Origin: Patescibacteria group bacterium | GTDB taxonomy: Bacteria; Patescibacteriota; Minisyncoccia; UBA6257; 2-01-FULL-56-20 | Reading direction: 5' to 3' | NCBI GenBank assembly: GCA_038077975.1 | Contig: JBBUGM010000006.1 | Span: 4,905-68,904, forward strand | Length of the DNA stretch: 64,000 bases | Shown here: in pieces, positions 3 to 23,803 of the stretch | Layout: the number at the start of each line of letters is the position of its first letter | Numbering within the stretch: position 1 is the first letter of the stretch | Position numbers and translations under genes: made by a program | The notes under the pieces: generated by a model | The model's input: only the letters and a program-made list of their open reading frames with translations | What the model was told of the DNA's origin: nothing | Database searches by the model: none

Positions 3-497
3 AGCAACCCCAATCTCGATCATGCCGCGAAAAGCTTCCGCTATACATTCTCTCTCTCCGATCCCACCGGTAAAGTCGTTGCAACTTTTTCCGGAAACTC
101 ATTCCTTTACGCGCGTGAAGTGAAATATATTTTGCTTCCGAACGTTCCCACGCCCGCGGAGGCATTTACTAGCGTTAGTTTCAAAGCCCAAAACGCAGAG
201 TGGGTGGTGAGGGATGAATTTCCCGGCCCGCCGACATTAACCGTTTCCGGGCTAGACACCCGTGTTGAAGGCAACAACCTTATCGTTGAGGGCCGCGTGA
301 CGAATGGAGATATTTTGGCTTTTTCGGAATTGCGCGTTATCGCTCTTTTCCAAGGGCAGTTCGGCCAGCTCGCTGGGGCATCGGAAACGATTATAGACAG
401 GATAGTTCCCAACGAAACCAAGTCATTCTCCATCATCTATCCAGCGATACCGAATGCCGACTTGGCAGGGACGAAGGTATTCGTATACGCCCGCTAA
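3..497 (+). CDS. hypothetical protein (5' partial, continues upstream of window)
   Basis: Open frame runs from position 3 with no stop until 495-497; no recognisable motif. Confidence 0.4.
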   Translation, partial: SNPNLDHAAKSFRYTFSLSDPTGKVVATFSGNSFLYAREVKYILLPNVPTPAEAFTSVSFKAQNAEWVVRDEFPGPPTLTVSGLDTRVEGNNLIVEGRVTNGDILAFSELRVIALFQGQFGQLAGASETIIDRIVPNETKSFSIIYPAIPNADLAGTKVFVYAR

Positions 498-501
498 TTT
501 A

Positions 502-1548
502 ATGTCCCTCTTCCTCCCCGTCGGAATCCTTGTTTTTGCTGGGCTTTTGGCGATCTCGAGCGTTGCCCCCGCGCTTTTCTCTCTACAGCTTATGTGGGTG
601 GCGCTTGGCGTCGGCATCCTTGCCATTTTTTATTTTTTCGACTGGAGAATTCTTTTGACCTACAGGTGGTTTACCGGAGCGCTTTATATTTTTTCCGTGG
701 CGCTACTCACATTCGTTTATTTTTTCGGACCGGAGACAAGAGGTGTGCGCGGATGGATCACGTTCGGTCCGCTTAACTTTCAACCGGTCGAACTTATGAA
801 GGTCGCACTCATACTTTTGTATGCCGGTTATTTTTCACGGAAACACTGGAACATTTCGCGATGGAGCACGATTGCGCGCTCTTTTGTTTTTTTCGCGGTG
901 CCGGCCGCGCTTGTCGCTCTCCAGCCAGACCTCGGCTCGGCGACAATTCTTTTCGGCATCTGGTTCGGTTTTATTTTCTTATCCGGCTTTTCCGGAAAGA
1001 GATTGCTATTACTGCTATTCATCTTCATTATCGCCGCCGTTCTTATGTGGTTTTATTTTCTCGCCGACTATCAGCAGGCGAGGATTACCGGACTCTTTTT
1101 TCCGGAACGAGATGCCTTGGGCGTGAACTACAGCACAGCGCAGTCAAAGATAGCGATCGGTTCTGCCGGATTTTTCGGCAAGGGTTACGGGCAGGGTTCG
1201 CAGGGACAACTAGGGTTTCTTACGGAGCCCGAAAGCGACTTTGTCCTTGCCGCGATAATCGAGGAGTGGGGAATCTTCGGAGGAGCGGTAGCAATAGCGG
1301 CATTTCTCGCCCTCATCGCCGCAATTATGCGGACAGGGCTTAGGGCCGAGCGAAATTTTGAAAAATTCTTGTGCCTTGGCGTAGTTGTGGTTTTCGGCTT
1401 ACAATTTATGCTTAACGGCGGCTCGACCTTAGGCCTTATGCCCGTAGTCGGCGTCACGTATCCCTTCGTAAGTTATGGCGGTTCGAGCATGGTCACGAAT
1501 TTTTTTCTTTTAGGACTAATCAATGCCATTAAAAGGAAGCAGACGTAA
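502..1548 (+). CDS. FtsW/RodA/SpoVE-family peptidoglycan glycosyltransferase (SEDS)
   Basis: Multi-TM protein with the conserved SEDS segment GKGYGQGSQGQLGFLTEPESDFVLAAIIEEWGIFGG; ATG at 502 lies just after the upstream stop. Confidence 0.8.
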   Translation: MSLFLPVGILVFAGLLAISSVAPALFSLQLMWVALGVGILAIFYFFDWRILLTYRWFTGALYIFSVALLTFVYFFGPETRGVRGWITFGPLNFQPVELMKVALILLYAGYFSRKHWNISRWSTIARSFVFFAVPAALVALQPDLGSATILFGIWFGFIFLSGFSGKRLLLLLFIFIIAAVLMWFYFLADYQQARITGLFFPERDALGVNYSTAQSKIAIGSAGFFGKGYGQGSQGQLGFLTEPESDFVLAAIIEEWGIFGGAVAIAAFLALIAAIMRTGLRAERNFEKFLCLGVVVVFGLQFMLNGGSTLGLMPVVGVTYPFVSYGGSSMVTNFFLLGLINAIKRKQT

Positions 1549-2521
1549 AAAGTTGATCTGGTCGGCGGGGTTTCTCGCGCTATTCCTGCTTCCACTAGGA
1601 TTATTTTTTTATGGACTGATGTCTAGAGATTCCGGGACTTTGCCGCAGACAAAAATTTTTGAAGTGAAAGAAGGAGAAGGTTTTTTGGGAATTTCCCATC
1701 GTCTTGAAGCAGAAGGGGTGATAAGGTCCGAACTTGCCTTCGAAACGTTGTCGTTCTTTACTGGCGCGGCGATCCATTTCAAGCCGGGTATTTATCAATT
1801 CGATTCGACAAAAAACGGCCTTGAGATCTTGCGCGAATTGACGTTTGGGCCGCACCGAGAGATTAGCGTGCGAATTCCCGAGGGCGCGAGCGTATATGAA
1901 GTTGACTCGATCTTGAGCGAGGCCGGCGTTGTTCCGCCGAGAGAACTCTTGGCATACGTTAAAGCACAAAGCCGGCCGATCGAAGGGCGCCTTTTCCCGG
2001 ACACATACAAATTTTTTACCGGTTCGCCACCGAAAGACATAATCGAAAAATTTTTAGAGAACTTCCGCGCGAAAACCGAAGGGTTTTTTGACAAGTTGAG
2101 CGAAGCCAAGATCAATGAAATTATCACGCTCGCTTCGATCATCCAAAAAGAAGTTCCCGGCGAAGAAGACGGGAGGATCGTGGCCGGAATACTCCTTAAG
2201 CGCCTTAAGGCGGGGGTTCCCCTACAAGTAGACGCATCAATATGCTACATTAAGAAAATATTGGGCTATCCGGGGGATTCCCCATGTTATCCACTTCACC
2301 CCCTTGACTTCAAGACGGAGTCGGATTATAATACATACTTACGTAAAGGACTGCCGCCAGGGCCCATTGGAAACCCTGGTATTTCTGCGCTTCGGGCGGC
2401 TCTTAGCCCAAAGAGCTCTTCATATTGGTATTACCTAAGCGACCCCGAAACGCAGCGAACAGTTTTTGCCAGCACGCTGGAAGAGCATAACGAAAATCGG
2501 GCTATGTATTTGGGATTATAA
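1523..2521 (+). CDS. mltG: MltG/YceG-like endolytic murein transglycosylase
   Basis: N-terminal TM, YceG-like motifs (ASIIQKEV, LQVDASICY); 26-nt overlap with the SEDS gene suggests one operon. Confidence 0.7.
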   Translation: MPLKGSRRKKLIWSAGFLALFLLPLGLFFYGLMSRDSGTLPQTKIFEVKEGEGFLGISHRLEAEGVIRSELAFETLSFFTGAAIHFKPGIYQFDSTKNGLEILRELTFGPHREISVRIPEGASVYEVDSILSEAGVVPPRELLAYVKAQSRPIEGRLFPDTYKFFTGSPPKDIIEKFLENFRAKTEGFFDKLSEAKINEIITLASIIQKEVPGEEDGRIVAGILLKRLKAGVPLQVDASICYIKKILGYPGDSPCYPLHPLDFKTESDYNTYLRKGLPPGPIGNPGISALRAALSPKSSSYWYYLSDPETQRTVFASTLEEHNENRAMYLGL

Positions 2522-2691
2522 ACCGGCGATAATAAAACTTTCGTAGCCGACTTTATTTCAAAAGAGGTCGTGTTAACTTAAGCAATCAAAATTAAAAAAT
2601 CACGCTTAAACCCTTCTCTTTGAGGAAGGGGTGCGGATTTTTGTCGTGTTTTTGTTCGGGACGTAAAAATGAGCGAATTTTAAATTCCAAA

Positions 2692-5600
2692 ATGTCGGAC
2701 AAATTGCCTAAAAAAGATTTCTCAAAATCAAAGCCGCTTGTTGAGCCATTTAACCTCAACGAGGCGCAGCTTAGGTCTTACCACTGGTTCATGGACCAGG
2801 GGCTCAAGGAACTTTTTGCGGAAATTTCTCCGATCACGGACAACACCGGCAAAGAACTGGAACTGCATTTCGGCAAGTACCGTTTCGACGAGCCGAAGTA
2901 TGACGAGGTGACATCGCGCTACAAAGACGCGACTTACGAAGCGGCACTAAGAGTTGAGTTGAAGCTGGTACACAAGTCGAGCGGCCGCTCGGAAAAACAA
3001 GAGGCCTATCTCGGCGATTTTCCGGTGATGACGCAGCGTGGCACATTTATTATCAATGGCGTGGAACGCGTTGTTGTTTCCCAGCTCATCCGTTCCGCCG
3101 GAGTTTACTTTACCGCCATTCCTTGGCGCGGACGACAGCTTTTTGGCGCCAAAGTCATCCCGAATCGCGGAGCCTGGCTGGAATTCGAGACGGATATCGA
3201 CGGCGCGATCGAAGTGAAGATCGACCGCAACAGAAAAGTTCCGGTTTCAAGCTTGCTCCGCATCTTCGGCATGGAAGACGAAAAGATCAAAGCCGCTTTT
3301 GCGGACGTTGAGAAGGGACAAACGCGCTACATCGACGCCACCTTCAAGAAGGACGTCGCCAAAAACCAGGAAGAATCGTATCTGGAAATTTACAGGCGTC
3401 TTCGGCCGGGCGATCCGGCAACGCCAGCGACCGCGAAGAACCTGATCGATGCGATGTTCGACCGCGTTGATCGATACGACATCTCCGAAGTCGGTCGTTT
3501 CAAGTTCAACCAGCGCTTGCGTCTTGACGCCAAAAACAAGAACCGATTGCTCGGCGCAGACGACCTTGTCGCCATCGTGCGCGAGATCATCACTTTGAAT
3601 AATCGAGTCGACGCGCAGCCGGACGACATCGATCACTTGGGGAATAGGCGGCTCAAAGCAGTCGGCGAGCTTATCCAAGGAAGATTGCGCATCGGGCTTG
3701 CCCGCTTGCGGAGAATAGTTCAGGATAGGATGTCTACCGAGGAGCGTGATAAGCTCATGCCCGGACAACTCATTAATTTCCGGCCGATCGCTGCGGTTGT
3801 TAAAGAATTTTTTTCTTCTTCCCAACTTTCACAATTTATGGATCAGGTTAACCCTCTCGCGGAATTGGAGCACAAACGCAGGATTTCCGCACTGGGTCCA
3901 GGAGGATTGACGCGCGAAAGAGCGAGTTTTGAAGTGAGAGACGTGCACCGCTCGCATTACGGCAGGATCTGTCCGATCCAAACTCCGGAAGGCGGCAATA
4001 TCGGGCTTATCAACTACTTGGCGAGTTTCGCCAAGATCAACGATTTCGGATTCGTCGAGACGCCTTACGCGAAGGTTGCGGACGGTCGCGTGACGGACGA
4101 AATAGTTTTGCTCGACGCGTTAGAAGAGGAAAGATACAGAATAACGCACGCCGGTGTTCAAAAAGACGCGGAAGGCAACCTTTTAGGCGATCGCGTTGAG
4201 GCGAGGGTAAAAGGAGTTGCCGGCACTTGCGCGCCAAAAGAAGTTGATTTTATCGATATTGCGCCGCATCAATTCGTAAGCGTCGCCACGTCCCTTATTC
4301 CTTTCCTTCAGCACGACGACGCGAACCGCGCCCTGATGGGTTCGAACATGCAAAGGCAGGCGGTGGTTTCCGTAAAACCCTCCGCGCCTTACGTTTCGAC
4401 GGGCGAGGAAGACCGCGTTGCCCTGGATTCCGGCTATGTTATTCAGGCCGAGAGCGCGGGCAAAGTGCTCGAAGCGGACGCGAGCCACATCACTATCAAA
4501 TATCAAAAAGGAGGCCTCAAAACCTACAACCTCGAAAAGTTCAAGAGATCGAACCAGTTCACTTGTATTTCGCAAAAACCGCTCGTCGTACCGGGCGCTG
4601 CGGTGAAGAAGGGCGATATTTTGGCGGACGGCCCCTCGATCGACAACGGCGTTCTCGCCCTTGGGCAGAATCTTTTGGTCGCCTTCATGTCTTGGGGCGG
4701 ATACAACTTCGAAGACGCCGTGATACTTTCCGAGCGCGTCGTGCAGGACGATCTTTTCACGTCGATCCACATCGAGGATTATTACTGTGATGTGCGTGAT
4801 ACGAAACTGGGCCCCGAGATAACGACTCCCGACATCCCAAACGTTTCCGAAGAGAAGTTAAGAAATTTGGACGAAGAAGGCATCATCAGGATCGGCGCGG
4901 AAGTCCGGGCCGGCGACATTTTGGTCGGAAAAATATCTCCGAAAGGAGAAGCGGAACTTACGCCAGAAGAGCGCTTGCTCCGTGCGATCTTCGGCGAGAA
5001 AGCGCGCGACGTTAAAGACACATCGCTCACGCTTTCGCACGGCAAACGCGGCCGCGTTATCAATATCAAAGTTTTTGACCGCGAGAAAGGCGACAAACTC
5101 GAGCCGGGAATCATCAAACGTATACAGGTTGAAATCGCGCAATTAAGAAAAGTGCAGGCGGGCGACAAGCTTGCCGGCAGGCACGGCAACAAGGGAGTTA
5201 TCTCGCAGGTTCGCAGAGTGGAAGATATGCCGCATCTTGAGGACGGCACGCCCGTGGACGTTATTTTGAACCCTTTGGGCGTCGCATCGCGCATGAACCT
5301 CGGACAGATCTTGGAAACCCACCTTGGCTGGGCGGCAAAGACGCTTGGCTACAGGGCGGTTACACCGGGACTTGATTCCGCGAGCGAGGAAGAGATCAAA
5401 GAAGAATTGAAGAAAGCCGGCCTTCCCGAAGACGGGAAAATTAAACTTTTCGACGGCCGCACGGGTAGGCCTTTCGACAAGAAGGTCGCGGTCGGAATCA
5501 TTTATATGATGAAGCTGAACCACTTGGTCGAAGACAAGGCGCACATGCGTTCGATCGGTCCCTACTCTTTGATCACGCAGCAGCCCTTGGGCGGCAAGGC

Positions 5601-8600
5601 GCAGTTCGGTGGCCAGAGATTCGGCGAAATGGAGGTTTGGGCGCTCGAGGGATACGGCGCTCGGCACACGCTCCAGGAGATGCTCACGATCAAGTCGGAC
5701 GACGTTTTAGGGCGCGCCGCCGCGTACGAATCGATCATCAGAGGCGAGACGATCAAAGAGCCGAACCTTCCGGCGTCGTTCAATGTTTTGGTGAACGAAT
5801 TAAAATCGCTTTGTTTCAACGTCAAGCCGCTTTACGCAGACGAAACGCAAAGAAGGGAGGCCTTTTCATCCCTGCAGATATCGATCGCGTCTCCCGAAGA
5901 CATCATGAAATGGTCTCACGGCGAAGTAGTGAAGCCGGAAACCATCAACTACCGGACACAGAGGCCGGAGAAGGACGGGCTTTTCTCCGAGAGGATCTTC
6001 GGTCCGACGAAGGACTACGAATGTTATTGCGGCAAATACAGGAGGGTTCGTTATAAGGGCGTCGTTTGCGACAAGTGCGGAGTCGAGGTGACCCGTGCCT
6101 CGGTTAGGCGCGACCGCATCGGCCACATTCAGCTTGCCGCGCCGGTGGGGCACATTTGGTTCCTCAAAAGCGTGCCGTCGCGCTTAAGTTTGACGCTCGA
6201 TGTTTCCGCTCCGAAGCTCGAAAGGGTGCTCTATTATTCCGCCTACATCGTCACAGAAGTCGATGAAACGGAAAGAAAAAGAGCGCTTGATGATCTCGAA
6301 CGGGAACTCAAAAGCCGCGTCAAGGAGATCGGCAAGAACCGCGGGGCGGAGTCGGAATTGAACGAAGCGGCGAAGGTAACCGAGAACTATCTCGAAAAAT
6401 TGCGTGTCGGTCAGGTGCTAACGGAGACGGAATATTTCAATCTTTCGAAGCGTTTCGGAAGCGTCTTTAAGGCGGGTAGCGGAGCAGAATCGGTGAGGCA
6501 CATTCTCGAAGGATTGGATATGCGGAAAGAAGTTCAGAAGATAGAGAAAGACCTGGAGGATGCGAAGGATCCACTCGCGCAGAGCAAGCTTTTGCGGCGC
6601 CTCAAAATGATGAAGTCGATGATCAAGAACCAGGCGCGGCCGGAATGGATGGTCATCACGACACTCCCGGTTCTTCCGCCCGACTTGCGGCCGATGGTGG
6701 CCTTGGACGGCGGAAGATACGCCACTTCCGACTTGAACGATCTCTACAGGCGCGTCATCAACCGTAACAACCGTTTGAAGCGGCTTTTGGAGATCAAAGC
6801 TCCGGACATTATCGTGCGCAACGAAAAAAGGATGCTACAGGAATCAGTGGATGCCTTGATAGACAACTCCGCTAGGTTCGGCACCCAGCAGATGAGCGCG
6901 CAAAGGCGGCCCCTGCGTTCCTTGGCCGACATGCTCAAAGGCAAGCAGGGCAGATTCAGGCAAAACCTTTTGGGTAAGCGCGTGGACTACTCCGGCCGCT
7001 CCGTTATCGTCGTTGGCCCGCGTCTTAAGATCGACGAATGCGGACTGCCGAAGACGATGGCCCTAGAACTTTTCCGTCCGTTCGTCTTGAGCGAGATTAT
7101 TAAACGTGGACTGGCCCACAACATTCGCGGAGCTGCAAGATTTATGGAAGAAGGCAGTGACGAAGTTTGGGAGATCTTGGAAGAAGTGATGAAAGGCAAG
7201 CGCGTGCTTTTGAACCGCGCGCCGACGCTTCACCGTTTGAGCGTGCAGGCATTCAAGCCGATTTTGATTGAGGGTCTCGCCATACAGGTTCCGCCCTTGG
7301 TTTGCGTTGCCTTCAATGCCGACTTCGACGGCGACCAAATGGCCGTGCATCTTCCGCTTTCACGTCAGGCGCAAAAAGAAAGCGAGGAGATAATGGCCGC
7401 AGGCAGGAATCTTTTGAAACCGGCTACCGGAGAGCTGATCACGACCCCGACACAGGACATGGTTTTGGGAATTTATTATCTGACACAGGCAGAAGATCCA
7501 ATTTCCGGGCAGAGAGCGAAGCGATTTGAAAGCATAGAATCGGCTCTTGTCGCCTATGAATTCGGATTTTTGGGCTTGCGCGAACTTGTGAATTTCCAAG
7601 GGATGGAGACGACCCTGGGGCGCATGATCTTTAATGAATCGTTGGCTGGGCGCGTTCCTTATCAAAACGAAGCTATCACCAAAAAGAAGCTGAGCAAGAT
7701 GATCGAAAGGATATTCATCGAGCGTGGCATCGAAGAAACCAGAGACACCTTAAACAGCGTGAAGTTGCTCGGTTTTGAAATGGCCAGCCGTTCCGGCATC
7801 ACTTGGTCGATGTCCGACCTTGTGGTACCGAAAGCCAAACCGGAAATTTTGGCGGCATCGGAAAAGCAAACGGCAGAAGTATACAGCCAGTTCGAAGAGG
7901 GGTTACTCACCGCGGCGGAGCGCCGGGCGAAAGTTATTAGTATTTGGGAAAAAGCTAAGACGGCAATTTCGAAAGTTATCGCCGTCGGCATCGACAAGAA
8001 CAATTCAATTTACCAGATCGTCGATTCCGGTTCGCGCGGCTCATGGTCTCAGCCGATCCAGATGATGGGCATGAGAGGCCTCGTGCAAAATCCTAAAGGC
8101 GAGATCATCGAACTTCCGATCAAGTCATCGCTTAAAGACGGCATGAGTGTTTTGGAATATTTCATTTCAACGCACGGCGCGAGAAAAGGCACTACGGACA
8201 CGGCTTTAAAAACTGCTCAAGCCGGATATCTTACCCGCCGCCTTGTCGACGTTTCCCAGGACCTCGTTGTCCGCGAAGCGGACTGCAAGACGAAAGACGG
8301 CATCGAGATAGTCCGCGCTGATGGCAAGGAATTCAACCAGTCGCTCGCGAGCCGCGTTTTCTCTCGCACGGCGCTCGAAGACATAAAATCAGGAAGAAAG
8401 ACGCTTATCAAAGCCGGCGAGACGATCAACAAGGCCGTCGCAGAAGAGATCGAAGCCGCAAAGATCGACTCCCTCAAGGTTCGATCGCCGATTTACTGCA
8501 AAACGATCTCGGGACTTTGCGCGAAGTGTTATGGCTTCGATCTCGGCGATGATCAGCCGGTGAGATTAGGCATGGCCGCGGGAGTTGTGGCCGCGCAATC

Positions 8601-9429
8601 GATCGGCGAACCTGGCACGCAGCTCACGATGCGTACTTTCCACACTGGCGGCATCGCCGGTATCGACATTACGCACGGCTTGCCGCGGGTGGAGGAGCTT
8701 TTCGAAGTGAGGCCGCCAAAAGGCAGGGCCATTCTTGCTCCGGCGGACGGGATTATTAAGGAAATAGAAGAGAGAGGGACGGCGAAGGCGGTGCAGTTCG
8801 TCCCGAACGAGGGCAAAAAGAAGAAGCCGCAGGAATTTTTGATCCCGCGCACGGCACTTTTGTTCGTTAAGGCGGGGGACGAAGTTAAGCGCGGCGATCA
8901 GCTTTCCGAAGGGCACTTGGACATCAAGGAACTTTTGGAGATCAAGGGTAAGCCGGAAGTTCAGCGCTACATTATCAACGAAGTGCAAAGGATCTATATG
9001 TCCGAAGGCGCGAGTATCAACAACAAGCATATCGAAATTATCGTGCGCCAAATGTTCTCGCGCGTGCGCATCAAGGATGGCGGCGATTCGTCGGAACTCG
9101 TGATGGGAGAGATCGTGGAAAAGGACAAAGTTTTGGAAGCGAACCGCGAACTGCGGAAGCAGGGCATGAAACAGGTTAAAGCTGAAGAAATATTACTCGG
9201 CATCACAAGGGTCGCGCTTTCCGCGGAAAGCTTCCTTTCAGCCGCTTCTTTCCAGGACACATCGCGCGTGCTCGTTAAAGCCGCGATCGAAGGCAGGATC
9301 GACAAATTGCGCGGCCTCAAAGAAAACGTCATTATCGGCCGCCTCATACCGGTTATCGGCAAGGAAGCCGCCGCAGAAGAAGCAGAGGCGCTTTTGCCAG
9401 GAGCGGAAGAAGTTGCAACCCAAGTGTAA
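2692..9429 (+). CDS. rpoBC: DNA-directed RNA polymerase beta-beta' fusion (RpoB-RpoC in one ORF)
   Basis: N-terminal half is RpoB. C-terminal half is RpoC (Zn finger [23 protein letters not shown], catalytic [11 protein letters not shown]). Junction near nt 5830-5880 has no stop or frameshift. Confidence 0.9.
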
Positions 9430-9521: not shown

Positions 9522-9956
9522 ATGGAAGAAAAAGACAAAAAAAATTACGAAGTCGCATTTATCCTTGAGAAAGAGGAGAATCTTCAGGATTTTTTGAGGA
9601 TCTCGCGCCAGCACAATATCGAGCCACAAACGGAGGCGCGGGCGCATAAGCTGAATCTTGCTTACAAGATCGAAAAAGCCACGCAGGCCTATTTCGGATT
9701 TTTCAGAACTTCTGCGAATCCTGATGATGTGAAAGCGCTCGAAAAGGACCTGAACACGGCCGCCGGCGTTTTGCGTTTTCTCATCGTCAAACTTCCAAAG
9801 GAAGCGTTTGAGGCGAGGAGGGAAAGAGTTGATATGAGGGATATGAGGAGAGAGAGAAAACCAATGCCCAGAAAAAACATGCCGACACAGCCCAGGGCTT
9901 CGGAAACCTTAAGCAACGAAGCGCTGGAGAAAAAGATTGAAGAAATACTTCAATAA
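9522..9956 (+). CDS. rpsF: 30S ribosomal protein S6
   Basis: S6-like pattern (YEVAFIL..., LAYKIEK, VLRFLIVK) and position directly upstream of ssb. Confidence 0.7.
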   Translation: MEEKDKKNYEVAFILEKEENLQDFLRISRQHNIEPQTEARAHKLNLAYKIEKATQAYFGFFRTSANPDDVKALEKDLNTAAGVLRFLIVKLPKEAFEARRERVDMRDMRRERKPMPRKNMPTQPRASETLSNEALEKKIEEILQ

Positions 9957-10052
9957 AATTTCTAATTTCTAAATCCTAATTTCTAAAATTTGACTATTTT
10001 AAATTTTTGGGATTTGATTAGAGCAATTAGTAATTAGAATAATTAGAAATTT
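9957..10052. repeat. AT-rich inverted-repeat module of CTAATTTCTAA / TTAGAAATTAG units around a TTGACT box
   Basis: aatttctaatttctaaatcctaatttctaa on the left is mirrored by attagtaattagaataattagaaatt on the right. Confidence 0.45.
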
Positions 10053-10541
10053 ATGAATCTCAACAAGGCCCTCCTCATCGGTCGCATCACGGCCGACCCC
10101 CAGCTTCGGACAACTCCCGGTGGGCAGTCGGTTTCAGCATTTTCGGTCGCTACGAACCGTGTTTGGACGGACAAGGCGGGCGCGAAGCAGGAATCTGTCG
10201 AGTTTCACAACATCGTCGTTTGGGGCAGGCAGGCGGAGATAGTGACGCAATATTTAACGAAGGGTAGTATGGTTTTGATCGAAGGACGCCTGCAGACGCG
10301 TTCTTGGCAAGGCAAAGACGGCCAGGAGAGGCGCACGACGGAGATCATTGCCGAGCGGGTGCAGTTCGGTCCCCGTTCGGCAAGCTCCCAGCCTTCGCAG
10401 GGCTACGGCGGGCAGGCAGGGCAGGCGAGGCCTGCAGCTGGCAAGCAAGGTGGCGGTGAAAGTCAGGCGACAAAAGAGGAAGAAGTTCCGACGGTGAATC
10501 TTGATAGTGAAGAAGTGAAGCCGGAGGACCTGCCGTTTTGA
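10053..10541 (+). CDS. ssb: single-stranded DNA-binding protein
   Basis: OB-fold SSB N-terminus (LIGRITADPQLRTTPGG..., VEFHNIVVWG), Gly/Gln-rich linker, acidic C-terminal tail ending DLPF. Confidence 0.85.
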   Translation: MNLNKALLIGRITADPQLRTTPGGQSVSAFSVATNRVWTDKAGAKQESVEFHNIVVWGRQAEIVTQYLTKGSMVLIEGRLQTRSWQGKDGQERRTTEIIAERVQFGPRSASSQPSQGYGGQAGQARPAAGKQGGGESQATKEEEVPTVNLDSEEVKPEDLPF

Positions 10542-10990
10542 TATTCATTTTCTTTATGCCTCAATCACCAGAAAAATCTATTGGCGAAAGCAACCCACCC
10601 CCAGAGAAGCATATTAAAGGCGAAGATTTGGAAATAGCAAAATTATATCAAAAAGAGCACCCAGATTTGGATAGAGATAAATTGGGTGTATTACTAGAAC
10701 GCGAGGGATTTGGAGCTGACCACCATAAGTTCAGTGGATGTAGTGATCGAGCAGAATATATCAATTTGGTTTTAGATAAAATATTTCTATCCCCTGAAGA
10801 AGTTGAACGGCAGAAGCAGATTTTGGCATTATTGAAGCAACTAGAGGACGGAGCAATTTATAAGTCAATTATTGGTTTTATGGGACCAGTTACCAACGAA
10901 GAAGAAAGGCTGCGAAAAATAGAAGATAGGAAAACAAAAATAATAGAAGAACTTCGCAATTTAGGATACGAGATGTATCCTCGGGAATAG
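10538..10990 (+). CDS. hypothetical protein (low-GC gene)
   Basis: 150-aa ORF, markedly lower GC than flanking ribosomal genes, no recognisable motifs. Confidence 0.4.
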   Translation: MIFIFFMPQSPEKSIGESNPPPEKHIKGEDLEIAKLYQKEHPDLDRDKLGVLLEREGFGADHHKFSGCSDRAEYINLVLDKIFLSPEEVERQKQILALLKQLEDGAIYKSIIGFMGPVTNEEERLRKIEDRKTKIIEELRNLGYEMYPRE

Positions 10991-10992
10991 AT

Positions 10993-11277
10993 ATGGCCAG
11001 AGAGCAAGAACCAAATTCAAGAGAGCAGTTAGCGCAAGAGTTTTTGGAAGTGCACGAAAAGTTGAAATCCTTGGTCTATGACCTCGGAGGACCAGCAGGA
11101 TATTTGGAACAATTAGAAGATCCAGTTGGAAAGAGAAATTACACGGATTCAGAAATAGATTCTGGCAAACCACTTTCAGAGATTATAGAGAACGATATAT
11201 ATAAAACAATGGAAGCGGTTGAGGCGGTATCAAAAAAGTGGAGAGAATTAAGAGAAAAACTTAGAGAAATTAACTAA
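10993..11277 (+). CDS. hypothetical protein (low-GC gene)
   Basis: 94-aa ORF 2 nt after the previous stop; same low-GC composition. Confidence 0.4.
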   Translation: MAREQEPNSREQLAQEFLEVHEKLKSLVYDLGGPAGYLEQLEDPVGKRNYTDSEIDSGKPLSEIIENDIYKTMEAVEAVSKKWRELREKLREIN

Positions 11278-11283
11278 TTTATC

Positions 11284-11709
11284 ATGGCGAAAAAGATTAA
11301 AACAGTTCTGAAATTACAGCTCCCTGCCGGGGCCGCAAATCCCGCGCCGCCCGTGGGCACTGCTTTGGGGCCTCATGGAGTTAACATCCAGGAGTTCTGC
11401 AAACAGTTCAACGAGAAGACCAAAGACATGACAGGGGACATTGTGCCGGCGGAAATTACGATCTTCGAAGACCGCAGTTTTAAGTTTATTTTAAAAACCC
11501 CTCCGGCCTCCGCGCTCCTCAAAAAAGCCGCCGGCGTTGAGAAAGGCTCCGGCAACCAGCTCAAGACCAAAGTCGGCAAAGTTACCCGTGCCGATATCCG
11601 CAAGATCGCCGAACGCAAAATGCCCGACTTGAACACGGATAATCTCCAAGCCGCCGAAAAAATAATTGCAGGGACGGCTCGGAACATGGGAATCGACGTA
11701 GTCGATTAG
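11284..11709 (+). CDS. rplK: 50S ribosomal protein L11
   Basis: Full-length L11 similarity ([16 protein letters not shown]...[13 protein letters not shown]...). Confidence 0.9.
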
Positions 11710-15744: not shown

Positions 15745-16068
15745 ATGGCAAAAACAGCAGCTTCAAGCCCCATAACAGCGAAAGAAATAGTTGGCGTCAT
15801 ACTCCGCGACTACGGGCCGGTTGAAAAAGTTATTTTGTTTGGTTCGCGAGCAAGGGGGAATGCCGACGAATCAAGCGATCTCGACCTGATTGTCGTGAAG
15901 AATACCGACAAGCCGTTTGTACGACGATTGGTTGACGCCCCTTATTTTTCAATCCACTCCGACATATTTGTTTACACGCCCAAAGAATTTGAACAAATGC
16001 AAGAAAATGAGAACCCTTTTGTAATGAACGCGCTTGAGCACGGAGTTGTGTTGTATCCCGCGTCTTAA
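15745..16068 (+). CDS. minimal nucleotidyltransferase (MNT) antitoxin-like protein
   Basis: GSRARGNADESSDLDL pol-beta NTase motif, 107 aa. Confidence 0.75.
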   Translation: MAKTAASSPITAKEIVGVILRDYGPVEKVILFGSRARGNADESSDLDLIVVKNTDKPFVRRLVDAPYFSIHSDIFVYTPKEFEQMQENENPFVMNALEHGVVLYPAS

Positions 16069-16069
16069 C

Positions 16070-16480
16070 ATGAAAAATTCTTTTCTAAACGCTCGCCGCT
16101 GGCTGAGGCAGGCTGAATACGACTTTGAACAGGCAGAAAAATCATTTGACGACAAGTCGTACGCCTACGCCGCATTTTTCAGTGAGCAATCGGCACAAAA
16201 ATCACTAAAGGCAGCGCTTTTTAAGAGCGGGAAGCGGGCTATCACGATTCACTCGATTGCGGAACTGGCAAAAGAAGCCGCTGCTGTTGCGGACAAATCA
16301 TTTGCGGAACTTGTTGAAAGCGGCGCGCGGCTCGACAGGCACTACCTTGCCGCGCGTTACCCCGACGCTCTGCCCGAACCAGCCACCCCCTTCGAATCTT
16401 ATGTCGAACAAGACGCGGCAGAGGCGATAGCGTTTGCCCGCAAGATTCTCTCGGCCGCAAAGAAGTTTGTCGAGCGATAA
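16070..16480 (+). CDS. HEPN-domain protein (toxin partner of MNT)
   Basis: Immediately follows the MNT gene; HEPN-like helical protein of 136 aa from the internal ATG. Confidence 0.65.
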   Translation: MKNSFLNARRWLRQAEYDFEQAEKSFDDKSYAYAAFFSEQSAQKSLKAALFKSGKRAITIHSIAELAKEAAAVADKSFAELVESGARLDRHYLAARYPDALPEPATPFESYVEQDAAEAIAFARKILSAAKKFVER

Positions 16481-16500
16481 CGGCGTTTTCGCCAACCGGA

Positions 16501-16632
16501 GCCGCCGCCGACTACAAAAAAGGCAAAGCGCAGGCCTTGCAATTCTTAGTGGGCAAGGCGATGAGCAAGTTAAAGGGCAGGGGAGACCCGGAGAAGTTGA
16601 GGGAATTACTAAAGAAACAGCTGGGGACATAG
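16501..16632 (+). pseudogene. orphan duplicate of the gatB 3' end (attR-like remnant)
   Basis: About 85% identical to 15601-15732 at an exact 900-nt offset; a 20-nt identical core gccgactacaaaaaaggcaa, then decaying identity, ending at an in-frame tag. Confidence 0.7.
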
Positions 16633-16709
16633 TTGCGAGAGAAAATAACTTGGCAAAAACCTAAAGAGCACTAGAATGTGTTTAGAAGCTTTGAGCGGAG
16701 GGATGTAAG

Positions 16710-17045
16710 ATGGGCCTTCGATCTTGGTTGAGTAAGCACGTGGAAGAATTCCGAGTTGAACCCGAACCCGAGTGCGGACACGAAGTTCCATGTCTTTGCG
16801 ACAGCTATTTGCAGGGTCTCTCCTATGAGCAATTACTCAGATTGCGCGTAGGATACAGCATTGTTGTTCTTCCAGATCACTTTCAAAAGTCGCCGACATT
16901 GGCTGCGATTCCGATTATCATTGAGGGAGACGGCGCACCGGAAAATCCCCGAACTGAATTCAGGCGCGCCAAAAACGAAGCGAAATTGGCATGCGCGAAA
17001 ATAGACAGAGTTCTTCACGATAAGTTCAGAGTGATTTTCGTTTGA
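16710..17045 (+). CDS. hypothetical protein
   Basis: 111-aa ORF with GGAGGGA RBS. Confidence 0.4.
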   Translation: MGLRSWLSKHVEEFRVEPEPECGHEVPCLCDSYLQGLSYEQLLRLRVGYSIVVLPDHFQKSPTLAAIPIIIEGDGAPENPRTEFRRAKNEAKLACAKIDRVLHDKFRVIFV

Positions 17046-17168
17046 AGGTCGAATATTCATGGCTACGGCAACAACCGTAGCCATTTAGCTTATAAACGTT
17101 TGCCTTGCCTTTTGCGCGTCAGAGTGTAGCATCTAATCAGGAGCTTTGATACATTGAGGAGGTTAGCC

Positions 17169-17876
17169 GTGAAATTCCCGCATACGATAATTGATGCAGG
17201 CAGGGAGCGCCTTCAATCCTTTGAGGAATCTCTGAAAAAGATTAATCTTGCCGCTAGGGCGTCGCCGGATCGCCATGTTAAAACAGGGACGACCGTTGTG
17301 GCCTTTGTTAGTAAAGACGGACAAGTCGGCGTTATCGCGTCTGACGGTCGCATTTCGATGGGGACAATTTCTTTTAAGGAGGAATACAGGAAAATTTTCT
17401 CCTGTCGTATCGGCTTCGTCGGTGTTGCCGGTTCGTTGACCATGGTTCAGTTGGTCATGCCGAACTACAGATTGGACCTGAATAACTTTTGCGACGGGAG
17501 AAATCGTCTTGTTACCGCATCTGGCGCGGTCCACCGGCTTTTCCAGTATTATTTGCGTGCCGCACAACAGGAGGAAGGACAACTTGAATTACTGCCGCTT
17601 TTTTGGGATTTTGAAGAGAAGCAGTGCCGACTCTACGCGCTAGCGGGAATGTGTCACGTGAGAATGAATCACGCATGTGCGATCGGAAGCGGTGTTGGAG
17701 TAAATGGGCTGGATATTGACCGGCAATATACTCCGACGAATTCCAAAAGCCGTCTTATCGCCAATGCGCGCAAGTACATCATAAGGGCGTCTGCTAAAGA
17801 CGGCGCCACAAATCGCCACATTTTCTATGGAATTATAGATAAAGGGAAATTTGACGAAAAGGAGGAGGTGCTCTGA
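17169..17876 (+). CDS. prcB: proteasome beta subunit (Ntn hydrolase) with propeptide
   Basis: TG|TTVVAFVSKDGQVGVIASDGRISMG matches the beta N-terminus Thr1-Thr2 through D17 and K33 context; AGGAGG RBS then GTG start. Confidence 0.7.
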   Translation: MKFPHTIIDAGRERLQSFEESLKKINLAARASPDRHVKTGTTVVAFVSKDGQVGVIASDGRISMGTISFKEEYRKIFSCRIGFVGVAGSLTMVQLVMPNYRLDLNNFCDGRNRLVTASGAVHRLFQYYLRAAQQEEGQLELLPLFWDFEEKQCRLYALAGMCHVRMNHACAIGSGVGVNGLDIDRQYTPTNSKSRLIANARKYIIRASAKDGATNRHIFYGIIDKGKFDEKEEVL

Positions 17877-18619
17877 TGACCGGACTAGGCAGAGTGAACT
17901 ACGGCGCGTTTCTTGCGGACAAGAGAGCAGAGATTCTCAAACATTTGGAAGGATCTTTGCCGACAGTGATTGTCCCGACGTCAAGGGGCATCTATGTTTT
18001 TGCCGAGGAAATTGCTAAGGTCCATTCCACGATTTTGATCGCAGGCGCCGGAAGAATGCTTCCGTCCATTGCCGATTGGTATCGTGCCCAGATGACAGAC
18101 ATGGTTCAGGGCTGGAGTCCGCGCGAACCGAAAGCAAGCGCCGATGTCAATCTTCTGCAGCAGATTTTTTATCCGAACCTGAGCGTAGTGCCTGATGTTT
18201 TTCTGGCGGACCTTGTTCTTGTAGAAATTGGCGCGCAGAGAAGCAGCGACTACATTGCCCGCGTTGACGCTTTTTGCGAAATGAGCGATTTGAGCGACGA
18301 GAAAGTCGTCATAGTAAGTTATAGGGTCAGAAAAGAAAATGGCCACAACGATGACGAGAGCGTCGACGAGCCCGATACCCCATTATCAATAGAGGCCAGA
18401 AAGCAAGCGGAGGATGCCGTTAAAGCCGAGCGCGAAAACGAACTTAGATCTGAATTTTTAGATCTAGGCATGGCTTTGCCGGATAACATGGAAGAACGGC
18501 AAGGGGGAAAGGCAGGCCTTCTCAAGGCCCTAGAGGAGCAATATCCCGGTAAAGCCGTTTTACTCAGGCGCGATTTTGTCAGAAAAAAGGAGTTTGACTG
18601 GGTTTTTGAACCCCTGTGA
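17876..18619 (+). CDS. prcA: proteasome alpha subunit
   Basis: Pattern like actinobacterial PrcA (…SLPTVIVPTSRGIYVFAEE…ILIAGAGR…); TGATG overlap with prcB, GGAGGAGG RBS. Confidence 0.65.
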   Translation: MTGLGRVNYGAFLADKRAEILKHLEGSLPTVIVPTSRGIYVFAEEIAKVHSTILIAGAGRMLPSIADWYRAQMTDMVQGWSPREPKASADVNLLQQIFYPNLSVVPDVFLADLVLVEIGAQRSSDYIARVDAFCEMSDLSDEKVVIVSYRVRKENGHNDDESVDEPDTPLSIEARKQAEDAVKAERENELRSEFLDLGMALPDNMEERQGGKAGLLKALEEQYPGKAVLLRRDFVRKKEFDWVFEPL

Positions 18620-18625
18620 TAGTTT

Positions 18626-18658
18626 GTGCGGGCCCTCTTTTCGGGCCCGTTCTTTTTT
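18626..18658 (+). terminator. intrinsic terminator after prcBA
   Basis: gcgggccc-tcttttc-gggcccg followed by ttcttttttg. Confidence 0.55.
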
Positions 18659-18706
18659 GTTAGTATTGTGTTAGATGTTTGAACGCTTTGGTTATGGGAG
18701 GATGTG

Positions 18707-20389
18707 ATGCCGAGAGAAAATCCCGAAAGACAGCCGGAACTTAGCGCCCAAGAACTTTTGAATCGGCTGCGAAACTGCGAAGATGCATATGCCCGATCCG
18801 CTAGCGCGAACGATAAATTGGCCGAGTTGATTTTTAAACTTGCCCCGTTTAGAGAGCCGCCATACAGCTTGGCAGTTTTCGTTTCTCTGTCCGATATAAA
18901 CGACGGCAGGGAAGAAGGACTAAGAAGATCGCTCGCGTCGCTGGGGGTCGATTCACCCACGGACGGTTTTTCGAAGTGCTATCTTTTGCTGAATAACGGC
19001 GCCATGGCGATCGGCACGGTTGAAGATGAATTAGGAAGAGGCCTCAAGTCGGGACAAGTGGTTCTTGTAAGCGGCAACATGGGGGTTGTGGCCGCGGTTC
19101 CGGACGAAGAAATCAGGCATCTTAAAAGTGTTACGGTAGCGACCATCGAGCAAGTTGTGGACGATTTTATCCTGATTGACGACGGCGCCGGATATCGAGG
19201 CGGAGGCGTTGTTCTTTCTCCTCGTCTCCGGGAAGAGTTGGGGCGTAAACCTCTTGAGAACGGCGACAAAGTTCTGCTTTTTGGGAAATGTATTTTGCGC
19301 GTGCTTGAGAGACAGGAAAAGCGTATAGGTACGCTCGAGAAGGTGACGTTTGAGGATATCGGCGGCCTGGAAAAACAGGCGCAGGAAATCCGCGACCTTT
19401 TGGGCCTCGATTTCTCCGAGGAGCTTAAGCTCAAAATGAACAGAGAGTTTCCGCGGGGGGCGGTCCTTTACGGACCTCCCGGAAACGGCAAGACCCTACT
19501 TGCCCAAGTTTTGGGCAATGAGCTCGGATTTTTCATCGAGCTTGTCAGCGGTCCGGAAATAGAGAGTATGTGGGTTGGCGAAGGGCCGAAAATGATGAGA
19601 GCGAAGTTCGGGAGAGCCTATAAGAACAGGCCGTCTCTTCTGGTTTTTGACGAAGCTGATGTTCTTTTCCCGGTCCGCGGCGCCTCCGTTAGTGAGGGAT
19701 ACAAAACAGATTACCTTGCGCAGTTCAACGTTCTTATGCAGGGAGTTGAGAGTACCGCAGGCGTTTTCGTGCTTTTGCTGACGAATCGAGTTGACCGCAT
19801 TGATCCGGCAGCCATTCGAGCTGGGCGCGCGGATAAGAAAATTTTCATACCGCGTCCCGGTATGGACGGAGCCAAAAAAATCTTCTCGATCCATCTTAGG
19901 CGCTATCCTTTTGCCGGCGCGGATGACGATAAAACGAAAAGAAATCTCATGCGCGGACTTGCAGAGAAAGTGATCGAGGCAGTTTTCAGACGCGGGTCGG
20001 ATACACATCTTTTTACGGCTTTTCGCGGAACGGACGAGACAAGGTATTACATCAGAGATTTCGTTTCCGGAGCGCTGTTCAAAAATATAGCGGACGAGAT
20101 TTCTTTGCGCGCGATGAAGCGCCTTAAAGAGGATGGCACGGAAGCAGATTCTCCGCAGTGCGGTATCACAGAGATAGATGCGGACGGCGTTGCTGCCCAG
20201 GCGATCAGTAATGAGATACCGCGCGACGACGATTCGAGAAATCAATGGCTTTTAACGAACGGATATAAACCGGCAGACACATTTAGAAACGGTCCGGCTC
20301 TCGAGGACGAGAAAGAGCTGGCAAATCGCAGAAAAGTTATGATCCGCAGGCATGCAGTGAGGAAAACAAAGAAAAAGAGGCCCTCGTAA
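18707..20389 (+). CDS. ARC/Mpa-like AAA+ ATPase (proteasome-associated)
   Basis: N-terminal coiled coil, Walker A GPPGNGKT, Walker B LLVFDEAD; basic C-terminus lacking the usual GQYL tail. Confidence 0.7.
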   Translation: MPRENPERQPELSAQELLNRLRNCEDAYARSASANDKLAELIFKLAPFREPPYSLAVFVSLSDINDGREEGLRRSLASLGVDSPTDGFSKCYLLLNNGAMAIGTVEDELGRGLKSGQVVLVSGNMGVVAAVPDEEIRHLKSVTVATIEQVVDDFILIDDGAGYRGGGVVLSPRLREELGRKPLENGDKVLLFGKCILRVLERQEKRIGTLEKVTFEDIGGLEKQAQEIRDLLGLDFSEELKLKMNREFPRGAVLYGPPGNGKTLLAQVLGNELGFFIELVSGPEIESMWVGEGPKMMRAKFGRAYKNRPSLLVFDEADVLFPVRGASVSEGYKTDYLAQFNVLMQGVESTAGVFVLLLTNRVDRIDPAAIRAGRADKKIFIPRPGMDGAKKIFSIHLRRYPFAGADDDKTKRNLMRGLAEKVIEAVFRRGSDTHLFTAFRGTDETRYYIRDFVSGALFKNIADEISLRAMKRLKEDGTEADSPQCGITEIDADGVAAQAISNEIPRDDDSRNQWLLTNGYKPADTFRNGPALEDEKELANRRKVMIRRHAVRKTKKKRPS

Positions 20390-20458
20390 TGGGGGCCTCC
20401 TTTTATTTGCGGCAATGCCTTATAATGCAGATAGCATATTGATTCTAAGGAGAATAAG

Positions 20459-22000: not shown

Positions 22001-22012
22001 AGGAGGCGAACG

Positions 22013-23769: not shown

Positions 23770-23803
23770 GGGATTAGACCATTGATATTCTGTGAGGTGG
23801 TTT

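What the first reader, a model, noticed from the sequence alone, without database searches (positions are those of the whole stretch)
2692..9429. RNA polymerase beta and beta' encoded as one 2,245-aa polypeptide
RpoB motifs run continuously into the RpoC zinc finger and the NADFDGDQ catalytic loop, with no stop or frameshift around nt 5830-5880. Natural rpoB-rpoC fusions are known from only a few lineages (e.g. Helicobacter, Wolbachia). The two halves here are also compact: RpoB about 1,070 aa and RpoC about 1,175 aa, so they lack lineage-specific insertions.
Basis: seen in the sequence. Interest (0 to 1): 0.55.

Follow-up and report, generated by a model that had tools for sequence, protein, structure and literature searches.

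The report
Fused RNA polymerase β–β′ gene in Parcubacteria
The two large RNA polymerase subunits really are encoded as one 2,245-residue protein here; the fusion is inherited by a whole clade of ultra-small groundwater bacteria (Patescibacteria, including Liptonbacteria), and it is a new, independent example of a fusion type already known from Helicobacter and Wolbachia.

Summary
Window 2692-9429 (+) is one ATG-to-TAA frame of 2,245 codons holding a complete β followed by a complete β′. There is no stop or frameshift, and all catalytic motifs are intact.

It is not an assembly error. The identical protein sits on 5 contigs, at least 120 distinct fused homologues (69-81 % identity) exist in public data, and 35 of 80 related species genomes have the same uninterrupted junction. 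On a β+β′ tree the fused genomes form one clade (bootstrap 100/100). That clade nests among Paceibacteria/Parcubacteria relatives with separate rpoB and rpoC, so there was one ancestral fusion, independent of the Helicobacter, Wolbachia and Mycoplasma wenyonii fusions.

The junction is a short connector of fixed length (22 residues between anchors in 101 of 109 proteins; consensus P-x-Y-x-x-E-x-D-R-K-D-x-F). It consists of a trimmed β tail joined to residue 2 of β′. The β′ start codon is gone and no conserved internal ribosome-binding site or start remains, so β′ can only be made as part of the fusion.

The most likely result is a tethered, otherwise canonical RNAP core with obligate 1:1 stoichiometry. 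This is a new member of a known kind and of modest interest. I found no published description. Public annotation calls the protein only "subunit beta′".

The parts
2522..2691 (+). Intergenic leader between yceG/mltG and the fused gene. It contains a hairpin (CCCUUCUC...AGGAAGGGG) followed by U-rich runs.
   Evidence: The fold z-score of -1.57 is not significant. No Rfam family matches. No sigma-70-like promoter lies here; the nearest is at 2304-2332 inside yceG.
2692..5859 (+). β-derived module (aa 1-1056): Rpb2 domains 1-7, the Rif-region [21 protein letters not shown] (nt 5161-5196), and a trimmed C-terminal tail.
5833..5868 (+). Connector [12 protein letters not shown] (aa 1048-1059) between the last β strand (FNVKPL) and the first β′ strand (SLQISI). 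The fusion point is at about nt 5859/5860, where the stop codon, spacer and β′ ATG of split relatives are missing.
   Evidence: Junction comparison. AlphaFold2 model: flanking strands have pLDDT of about 89-92 and the connector about 69.
5860..9426 (+). β′-derived module (aa 1057-2245). It starts at the equivalent of β′ residue 2 and carries the Zn finger (nt 6022-6081), NADFDGDQ (nt 7315-7338), the bridge helix, the trigger loop and the second Zn site.
   Evidence: The model's β′ part matches solved β′ chains.
9427..9429 (+). TAA, the only stop codon of the fused gene.

Best explanation
This is a genuine, vertically inherited rpoB::rpoC translational fusion.

Origin. In the ancestor of a Liptonbacteria-containing clade of Paceibacteria (Parcubacteria, Patescibacteria), the rpoB stop codon, the short spacer and the rpoC start codon were lost. 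The starting arrangement already had the two genes only a few nucleotides apart and often in the same frame. A trimmed β tail of about 9-11 residues was joined to residue 2 of β′.

How it works. One ribosome makes a polypeptide of about 250 kDa. Its β and β′ halves fold into the canonical modules. A short connector of conserved length and sequence bridges the last β strand and the first β′ strand. The protein then joins α2 and σ to give an otherwise ordinary bacterial RNA polymerase with obligate 1:1 β:β′ stoichiometry and no separate β′-recruitment step.

Shown: continuity of the frame, conservation, single origin, intact motifs, and absence of an internal start.
Inferred: that the protein stays uncleaved, and that tethering helps assembly or stoichiometry rather than being a neutral frozen accident.
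For: Continuity and domain order. The identical protein is on 5 contigs, and the source contig has about 13x coverage. At least 120 fused homologues of 2,240-2,322 aa exist. 35 of 80 species genomes are fused at the same point and 44 are split. The fused taxa form one clade with bootstrap 100/100; the sister L054 and the next clade out are split. Identity within the clade is 68-98 %, with no reversion to split. The linker has a fixed length in 101 of 109 proteins with near-invariant P, Y, R, D and F, whereas split relatives have β tails of variable length, about 8-55 residues, that are charged. There is no conserved internal SD or start: 8 of 35 loci have any SD-like 4-mer and 2 of 35 also have a usable start. 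18 of 44 split relatives have both genes in one frame separated by a stop plus 3-84 nt. The AF2 model (mean pLDDT 79.6) places confident strands on both sides of a 12-residue connector, and the β′ part matches solved β′ chains. The synteny ftsW-yceG-rpoBC-rpsF-ssb is the same in fused and split relatives, so only the junction changed. Engineered β-β′ fusions give active enzyme (PMC12858399; bioRxiv 10.64898/2026.04.06.716786; bioRxiv 10.1101/2021.11.05.467461). Natural fusions occur in Helicobacteraceae and Wolbachia (PMC7483510).
Against: There is no protein-level evidence, so post-translational cleavage of the linker cannot be excluded. Raw reads were not available. Whole genomes could not be scanned for a second, separate rpoB or rpoC, or for rpoZ. 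The tree is neighbour-joining on a trimmed alignment, not maximum likelihood. The structure tool returns no coordinates, so the distance the connector must span was not measured. Any selective benefit of the fusion is untested.
Confidence: 0.85

Rival explanations
1. Assembly or sequencing artefact: a lost stop codon or an indel in this contig falsely joins two ordinary genes.
For: The sequence comes from a single metagenome-assembled contig at modest coverage (about 13x by the contig name). Some related MAGs do carry obvious assembly problems nearby: a frame break in L034, N runs in L043, and a masked junction in L066.
Against: The same in-frame junction, with a conserved linker sequence and no β′ start codon, is present in 35 independent species genomes and at least 120 protein clusters from NCBI, ENA, JGI and Logan assemblies. 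The fused state maps to one clade with bootstrap 100/100. The sequence at the junction is not "stop mutated": it is a remodelled linker of fixed length.
Confidence: 0.01
2. Polyprotein: the fusion is translated as one chain but is then cleaved at the conserved linker, so the mature enzyme has ordinary separate β and β′.
For: The linker is unusually conserved (P-x-Y...D-R-K-D-x-F), as a recognition site might be. Its modelled confidence is only intermediate (pLDDT about 69), which would fit an exposed segment.
Against: No protease motif or autoprocessing domain lies at the junction (Pfam). From my own recollection of Zakharova et al. (not held in the library), the Helicobacter fusion stays intact. 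Engineered fusions are used uncleaved (PMC12858399). Conservation is equally explained by the linker packing against the β/β′ interface.
Confidence: 0.08
3. Neutral frozen accident. The fusion is functional but gives no advantage. It became fixed by drift in small populations with reduced genomes, and it persists because re-splitting would require regaining a stop, a ribosome-binding site and a start all at once.
For: Engineered fusions and engineered splits of RNAP subunits are both tolerated (bioRxiv 10.1101/2021.11.05.467461; PMC7483510). Fusions have arisen many times in unrelated lineages, mostly as small or singleton clusters. The starting arrangement needed only a tiny deletion.
Against: After the fusion the linker was not left to drift. 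It has fixed length and several near-invariant residues, in contrast to the variable tails of split relatives. No reversion is seen in 35 species spanning 68-98 % identity. This shows constraint on the linker but does not prove the fusion itself is beneficial.
Confidence: 0.35

Closest known systems
Helicobacter/Campylobacterota fused β-β′ (NCBIfam PRK09603; reported in Helicobacteraceae per PMC7483510, citing Zakharova et al. 1999 and Lane & Darst 2010)
   Same: rpoB and rpoC form one ORF in β-to-β′ order, with the β C-terminus tethered to the β′ N-terminus. It is a lineage-wide trait.
   Different: The origin is independent. The window protein scores 2,212 bits against a cut-off of 5,372 for that model, and its clade nests among split Paceibacteria. 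It is much smaller (2,245 aa against a model length of 2,890). Its linker is short and unrelated.
Wolbachia fused β-β′ (NCBIfam PRK14844)
   Same: The same kind of fusion, also in a bacterium with a reduced genome.
   Different: The window scores 2,107 bits against a cut-off of 4,632. It belongs to a different phylum, and the model is 2,839 positions long against 2,245 aa here.
Other database fusions: Mycoplasma wenyonii WP_014849752.1 (2,648 aa), an Anaerolineaceae MAG (2,744 aa), a Deltaproteobacteria MAG, and several unnamed metagenomic clusters
   Same: Single polypeptides spanning both halves of the junction-centred query.
   Different: Identity is 37-57 %. Their linkers cover 43-105 residues over the span that is 53 residues here, with no sequence similarity. 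Most are singletons or small clusters, whereas this clade has at least 120 clusters.
Engineered rpoB-rpoC fusions (E. coli synthetic fusion; M. tuberculosis plasmid pMP61 with linked rpoBC)
   Same: They show that tethering the β C-terminus to the β′ N-terminus is compatible with an active RNAP (PMC12858399; bioRxiv 10.64898/2026.04.06.716786; bioRxiv 10.1101/2021.11.05.467461).
   Different: Those are artificial constructs with designed linkers. Here the linker is natural, short, and conserved across a clade.
Split rpoB/rpoC of sister Paceibacteria (Harrisonbacteria-, Wolfebacteria-, Colwellbacteria- and Ryanbacteria-labelled MAGs; loci L019, L035, L038, L049, L051, L054 and others)
   Same: Compact β and β′ at 60-72 % identity and the same neighbourhood, ftsW-yceG-rpoB-rpoC-rpsF-ssb.
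   Different: They keep a variable charged β tail, a stop codon, a spacer of 1-134 nt (in a few loci the genes overlap instead) and the β′ start M-DF-xAIKLKIASP.

Membership tests
Bacterial RNAP β subunit (RpoB) | Full-length match above the curated cut-off, with Rpb2 domains 1-7 in order. | tested here: met
   PRK00405 scores 1528 bits against 896 over aa 7-1045. Pfam finds Rpb2_1, 2, 3, 45, 6 and 7.
Bacterial RNAP β subunit (RpoB) | Conserved active-site and Rif-region motifs. | tested here: met
   [12 protein letters not shown] at aa 824 and SQLSQFMDQ at aa 377.
Bacterial RNAP β′ subunit (RpoC) | Full-length match above the curated cut-off, with Rpb1 domains 1-5 in order. | tested here: met
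   TIGR02386 scores 1543 bits against 963.5 over aa 1061-2221. Pfam finds Rpb1_1 to Rpb1_5.
Bacterial RNAP β′ subunit (RpoC) | The catalytic NADFDGD loop, N-terminal Zn finger, bridge helix and trigger loop. | tested here: met
   Found at aa 1542, 1111, 1829 and 1977.
Natural β::β′ translational fusion (the general kind) | One ORF in β-to-β′ order, with no stop or frameshift at the junction. | tested here: met
Natural β::β′ translational fusion (the general kind) | The junction is reproducible in independent genomes, so it is not an artefact. | tested here: met
   35 species genomes and at least 120 protein clusters.
Natural β::β′ translational fusion (the general kind) | The mature protein persists as a single uncleaved polypeptide in active RNAP. 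| not testable with these tools
   This needs proteomics or expression experiments. There is no internal start for a separate β′.
Helicobacter-type fused β/β′ (NCBIfam PRK09603 equivalog) | Score at or above the curated cut-off of 5,372 bits. | tested here: not met
   2,212 bits, matched in 6 pieces.
Wolbachia-type fused β/β′ (NCBIfam PRK14844 equivalog) | Score at or above the curated cut-off of 4,632 bits. | tested here: not met
   2,107 bits.
Helicobacter- or Wolbachia-type fusion | Common descent of the fusion event. | tested here: not met
   The fused clade nests inside split Paceibacteria with bootstrap 100/100, and linkers of other fused lineages are unrelated.

The most novel reading that the evidence does not exclude
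The fusion is an ancient, clade-defining rare genomic change of a Liptonbacteria-containing order of Paceibacteria, and it is maintained because it is useful. In ultra-small cells holding very few RNAP molecules, tethering β to β′ would remove stoichiometric noise and replace an assembly aid, such as translational coupling or the ω subunit. The conserved 12-residue connector would then be a structured part of the β/β′ interface. It would also be the smallest natural single-chain ββ′ core known (2,245 aa), which is attractive for structural and synthetic biology.
Probability: 0.25. Interest if true: 0.5.

Novelty: new member of a known kind. Interest (0 to 1): 0.35.

Why it matters
The finding matters in four modest ways.

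1. It gives a clean, essentially homoplasy-free marker (a rare genomic change) for delimiting one deep clade within the taxonomically confused Parcubacteria. Several member MAGs carry wrong labels such as "Saccharibacteria".
2. It shows that β-β′ fusion has been fixed and kept over long evolutionary time in a species-rich free-living or episymbiotic lineage, not only in Helicobacter and Wolbachia. The linker has itself come under constraint.
3. It flags an annotation problem: the gene is deposited as "subunit beta′" only. Pipelines that count rpoB or rpoC as single-copy markers, or normalise coverage by rpoB, should be aware of it.
4. It offers a naturally minimal single-chain ββ′ for expression and structural work.

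It does not change the understanding of how RNA polymerase works.

Tried and rejected
- First AlphaFold2 run (951-aa fragment, 14-row alignment): mean pLDDT 45, unusable. A 103-row alignment was too large.
- Relic rpoC ribosome-binding site. The window has AAGAAGGGAGG inside the linker codons, but it is not conserved in the clade (8 of 35 loci) and has no usable in-frame start (2 of 35). I rejected it as an internal initiation signal.
- My first motif-based classification counted only 33 fused loci. It was superseded by a tblastn and frame-walk classification and by inspection, which removed L066 as an N-run artefact.
- Regex extraction of junctions from other fused lineages failed and was replaced by alignment columns.
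- Rfam found no RNA family in the leader or elsewhere except one tRNA. The leader fold is not significant, z = -1.57.
- Literature. Eight searches found no report of rpoB-rpoC fusion in CPR, Patescibacteria or Parcubacteria (also 74). The primary papers on Helicobacter fusions (PMC93870, PMC2813377) are not held and are cited only through PMC7483510.
- A search for a Pup-like small ORF next to the proteasome cluster found none in 16400-17200.
Full report
**1. The observation**

The + strand of the window carries one stop-free frame from 2620 to 9429. Its first ATG is at 2692 and the only stop (TAA) is at 9427-9429, giving 2,245 residues. From the window's base composition, the chance of 2,269 consecutive sense codons is about 1e-50.

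Pfam places the seven β domains (Rpb2_1, 2, 3, 45, 6, 7; aa 22-1045) directly before the five β′ domains (Rpb1_1 to 5; aa 1057-2172). NCBIfam gives full-length matches above cut-off to rpoB (PRK00405, aa 7-1045) and rpoC (TIGR02386, aa 1061-2221).

All hallmark motifs are intact:
- [12 protein letters not shown] and the Rif-region SQLSQFMDQ in β.
- The N-terminal zinc finger, NADFDGDQ, bridge helix, trigger loop and second zinc site in β′.

Its size estimates are slightly off: the parts are about 1,056 and 1,189 aa rather than about 1,070 and 1,175.

**2. It is not an artefact**

The identical protein is in NCBI and ENA as a "Patescibacteria group bacterium" MAG protein and is found on five contigs. 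The window comes from ENA ERZ1292626, contig Hain_H43_01um_R3_37 (180,597 bp, coverage about 13), from Hainich groundwater.

A search of 5.8 billion protein clusters returned at least 120 distinct fused homologues. They are 2,240-2,322 aa long, 69-81 % identical, and carry all β and β′ Pfam domains. Where they are named, the names are Liptonbacteria, Ryanbacteria, Paceibacterota or Minisyncoccia.

In the collection with one genome per species, the 80 best related loci were fetched and each junction was classified by tblastn plus frame-walking, then inspected:
- 35 are fused at the same point.
- 44 have separate rpoB and rpoC.
- L066 only looked fused because a masked run of N covers its junction.

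**3. Anatomy of the junction**

Split relatives end β with a tail of variable length, about 8-55 residues beyond the last conserved strand, rich in charged residues. Then come a stop (mostly TAA), a spacer of 1-134 nt (a few loci overlap instead), and a β′ beginning M-DF-x-AIKLKIASPEEI.

In the fused clade the sequence reads ...NELK(S/A)L-x-FN(I/V)-x-P-(L/I/V)-Y-x-x-E-x-D-R-(K/R)-D-x-F-(S/K)-A-L-(K/R)-I...ASP. The trimmed β tail runs straight into the equivalent of β′ residue 2. The stop, spacer and initiator Met are gone.

Among the 109 fused proteins in which both anchors were found, 101 have exactly 22 residues between them. Positions P6, Y8, R14, D16, F18, A20 and L21 are 85-100 % conserved. 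After the fusion the linker became constrained, unlike the free tails it derives from.

In the window the connector is [12 protein letters not shown] (aa 1048-1059, nt 5833-5868), and the fusion point is at about nt 5859/5860. The SD-like GGAGG inside the window's linker codons is not conserved (8 of 35 loci), and only 2 of 35 loci have any SD-like element with a suitably spaced in-frame start. β′ therefore cannot be made separately.

**4. One origin, independent of known fusions**

I built a neighbour-joining tree on 1,833 trimmed columns of concatenated β+β′. All 36 fused sequences (35 loci plus the window) fall in a single clade with bootstrap 100/100.

The sister of that clade (L054, support 99/100) is split, and so is the next clade out (Harrisonbacteria-like L019, L035, L038, L048, L049, L051). 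Wolfebacteria-, Colwellbacteria-, Azambacteria- and Ryanbacteria-labelled lineages lie further out.

Identity within the clade is 68-98 % (median 73 %), and no member has reverted. The gene neighbourhood ftsW/rodA - yceG/mltG - rpoB(C) - rpsF - ssb is the same in the fused clade and in many split relatives, so only the junction changed.

Eighteen of the 44 split relatives already have both genes in one frame separated by a stop plus 3-84 nt, for example TAA + 3 nt + ATG in L013 and L038. A deletion or substitution of a few nucleotides would therefore have sufficed. This last step is inference.

The two curated fused-protein families score far below their cut-offs: Helicobacter-type PRK09603 at 2,212 against 5,372 bits, and Wolbachia-type PRK14844 at 2,107 against 4,632 bits.

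I also ran an exhaustive HMMER scan of 1.84 billion representatives at 50 % identity, using a junction-centred query of 1,191 aa. The whole clade collapsed into one representative (P0043). About 25 other representatives longer than 2,000 aa span both halves at 37-57 % identity. Those that carry names are Mycoplasma wenyonii, an Anaerolineaceae MAG and a Deltaproteobacteria MAG, and several are singletons. Their linkers differ entirely in length and sequence. β-β′ fusion is thus a recurrent, convergent event, and this clade is one independent and unusually species-rich instance.

**5. Structure**

No solved chain among the best PDB matches is a fused β-β′. The best hits are separate β chains (C. 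difficile, B. subtilis, cyanobacteria) and separate β′ chains.

A first AlphaFold2 attempt with 14 rows was unusable, with pLDDT 45. A second attempt used a 601-aa fragment (aa 900-1500) and a 79-row alignment mixing fused and free β and β′. It gave mean pLDDT 79.6 and pTM 0.69. In that model:
- The last β helix and strand (aa 1028-1047) have pLDDT of about 87-89.
- The first β′ strand (aa 1060-1065) has pLDDT of about 92.
- The 12-residue connector between them has intermediate confidence (about 69).

The β′ portion superposes on solved bacterial β′ chains (Foldseek probability 1.00, 49-55 % identity). The tool returns no coordinates, so the distance the connector spans could not be measured.

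That the β C-terminus and β′ N-terminus are neighbours in bacterial RNAP rests on established knowledge and on the function of engineered fusions. An E. coli synthetic fusion is noted in bioRxiv 10.1101/2021.11.05.467461. The M. tuberculosis linked rpoBC plasmid pMP61 yields active enzyme (PMC12858399; bioRxiv 10.64898/2026.04.06.716786).

**6. Mechanism**

The best-supported reading (confidence about 0.85) is a tethered but otherwise canonical RNAP core. One translation event yields β then β′. The conserved connector ties the two modules together, and the protein assembles with α2 and σ. Stoichiometry is necessarily 1:1, and the separate β′-recruitment step and rpoB-rpoC translational coupling are no longer needed.

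Continuity, conservation, single origin, motif integrity and the lack of an internal start are shown. That the chain stays uncleaved, and that tethering is beneficial, are inferred.

The rivals are:
- Assembly artefact: about 0.01, effectively refuted.
- Polyprotein cleaved at the linker: about 0.08, untestable here.
- A functional but selectively neutral frozen accident: about 0.35 as the answer to why it persists. This is compatible with the main statement.

**7. Compactness**

β here is shorter than the generic rpoB profile (1,096 positions) and than the closest solved β chains (1,100-1,266 aa). β′ is of minimal size, comparable to the rpoC profile of 1,147 positions. Split relatives have equally short β (1,067-1,085 aa). 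Compactness is therefore a trait of the group and not a consequence of the fusion.

**8. Novelty and literature**

Natural fusions are textbook for Helicobacteraceae and Wolbachia (PMC7483510, citing Lane & Darst 2010 and Zakharova et al. [quoted passage not shown]

Eight full-text searches found no paper linking such a fusion to CPR, Patescibacteria, Parcubacteria or Liptonbacteria. The study that produced the Hainich MAGs does not mention it. The library lacks most subscription journals, so this is absence of evidence only.

The sequences are public but annotated only as "subunit beta′" or "hypothetical protein".

Verdict: real, ordinary in mechanism, and a new member of a known kind. Interest is about 0.35.

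Noticed in passing
window 17154-23533 (+), with Lon at 23792-26380: A Pup-proteasome-like cluster in a Patescibacteria contig. It contains a proteasome subunit (PF00227), an adjacent 247-aa ORF with no Pfam hit (possibly the second subunit), an AAA ATPase, and two Pup-ligase family proteins (PF03136, a possible Dop/PafA pair). No Pup-like small ORF was seen in 16400-17200, and no paper tying Pup-proteasomes to CPR stood out.
   Followed up: partly
window 454-2521 and 9522-11709; loci L001-L080: The fused gene is not in the classical rplKAJL-rpoBC operon. Upstream are ftsW/rodA and yceG/mltG. Downstream are rpsF (S6), ssb, two ORFs without Pfam hits (10538-10990 and 10993-11277) and rplK (L11). 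The ftsW-yceG-rpoB(C)-rpsF-ssb order is conserved in fused relatives and many split ones.
   Followed up: yes
window 2304-2332 and 2609-2655: The only strong sigma-70-like promoter match near the gene (TTGACT-17-TATAAT, 11 of 12) lies inside the 3′ part of yceG. The 170-nt leader holds a GC hairpin followed by U-rich runs, resembling a terminator or attenuator. The fold is not significant (z = -1.57) and no Rfam family matches.
   Followed up: partly
loci L011, L013, L014, L018, L019, L026, L029, L031, L033, L035, L038, L039, L041, L042, L045, L047, L072, L077: In 18 of 44 split relatives, rpoB and rpoC are in the same reading frame, separated only by one stop codon and a short spacer of as little as 3 nt. 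This arrangement is one small mutation away from a fusion.
   Followed up: yes
L034 about 8444-8453; L043 about 6955-6969; L066 junction: Two fused-clade MAGs have a frame break inside the β part (aa about 825-859); L043 also holds a run of N. L066 has a masked N run exactly at the junction, which mimics a fusion. These are probably assembly or scaffolding defects.
   Followed up: partly
record titles of L001, L005, L008, L009, L012, L016, L026, L031, L042, L077 and others: Many MAG records whose RNAP clearly groups with Paceibacteria/Parcubacteria are titled "uncultured Candidatus Saccharibacteria", "Gammaproteobacteria" or "Planctomycetota". Proteins named Ryanbacteria occur both inside the fused clade (P0023) and outside it (L080). 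The taxonomic labels in this group are unreliable.
   Followed up: no
P0001, P0016, P0024, P0057 and others: Public annotation calls the 2,245-aa fusion "DNA-directed RNA polymerase subunit beta′", "subunit beta" or "hypothetical protein". None flags it as β/β′. This could mislead marker-gene counts and rpoB-based coverage normalisation.
   Followed up: no
P0121-P0157, P0222: About 25 further clusters (at 50 % identity) of fused β-β′ proteins have unrelated linkers. They include Mycoplasma wenyonii (WP_014849752.1), an Anaerolineaceae MAG, a Deltaproteobacteria MAG, and unnamed clusters with 6-21 members (P0131, P0134, P0135). Fusion is more recurrent than the few textbook cases suggest.
   Followed up: partly
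window 45661-48399 (+, 912 aa), 46144-48336 (-, 730 aa), 50107-52824 (+, 905 aa): Two large ORFs have no Pfam hit. A 730-aa antisense ORF lies entirely within the first of them.
   Followed up: no
window 16034-16480, 37787-38425, 44980-45552: Scattered toxin-antitoxin or defence-type genes: a HEPN-domain protein, an AbiEii nucleotidyltransferase toxin, and a DUF6036 nucleotidyltransferase.
   Followed up: no
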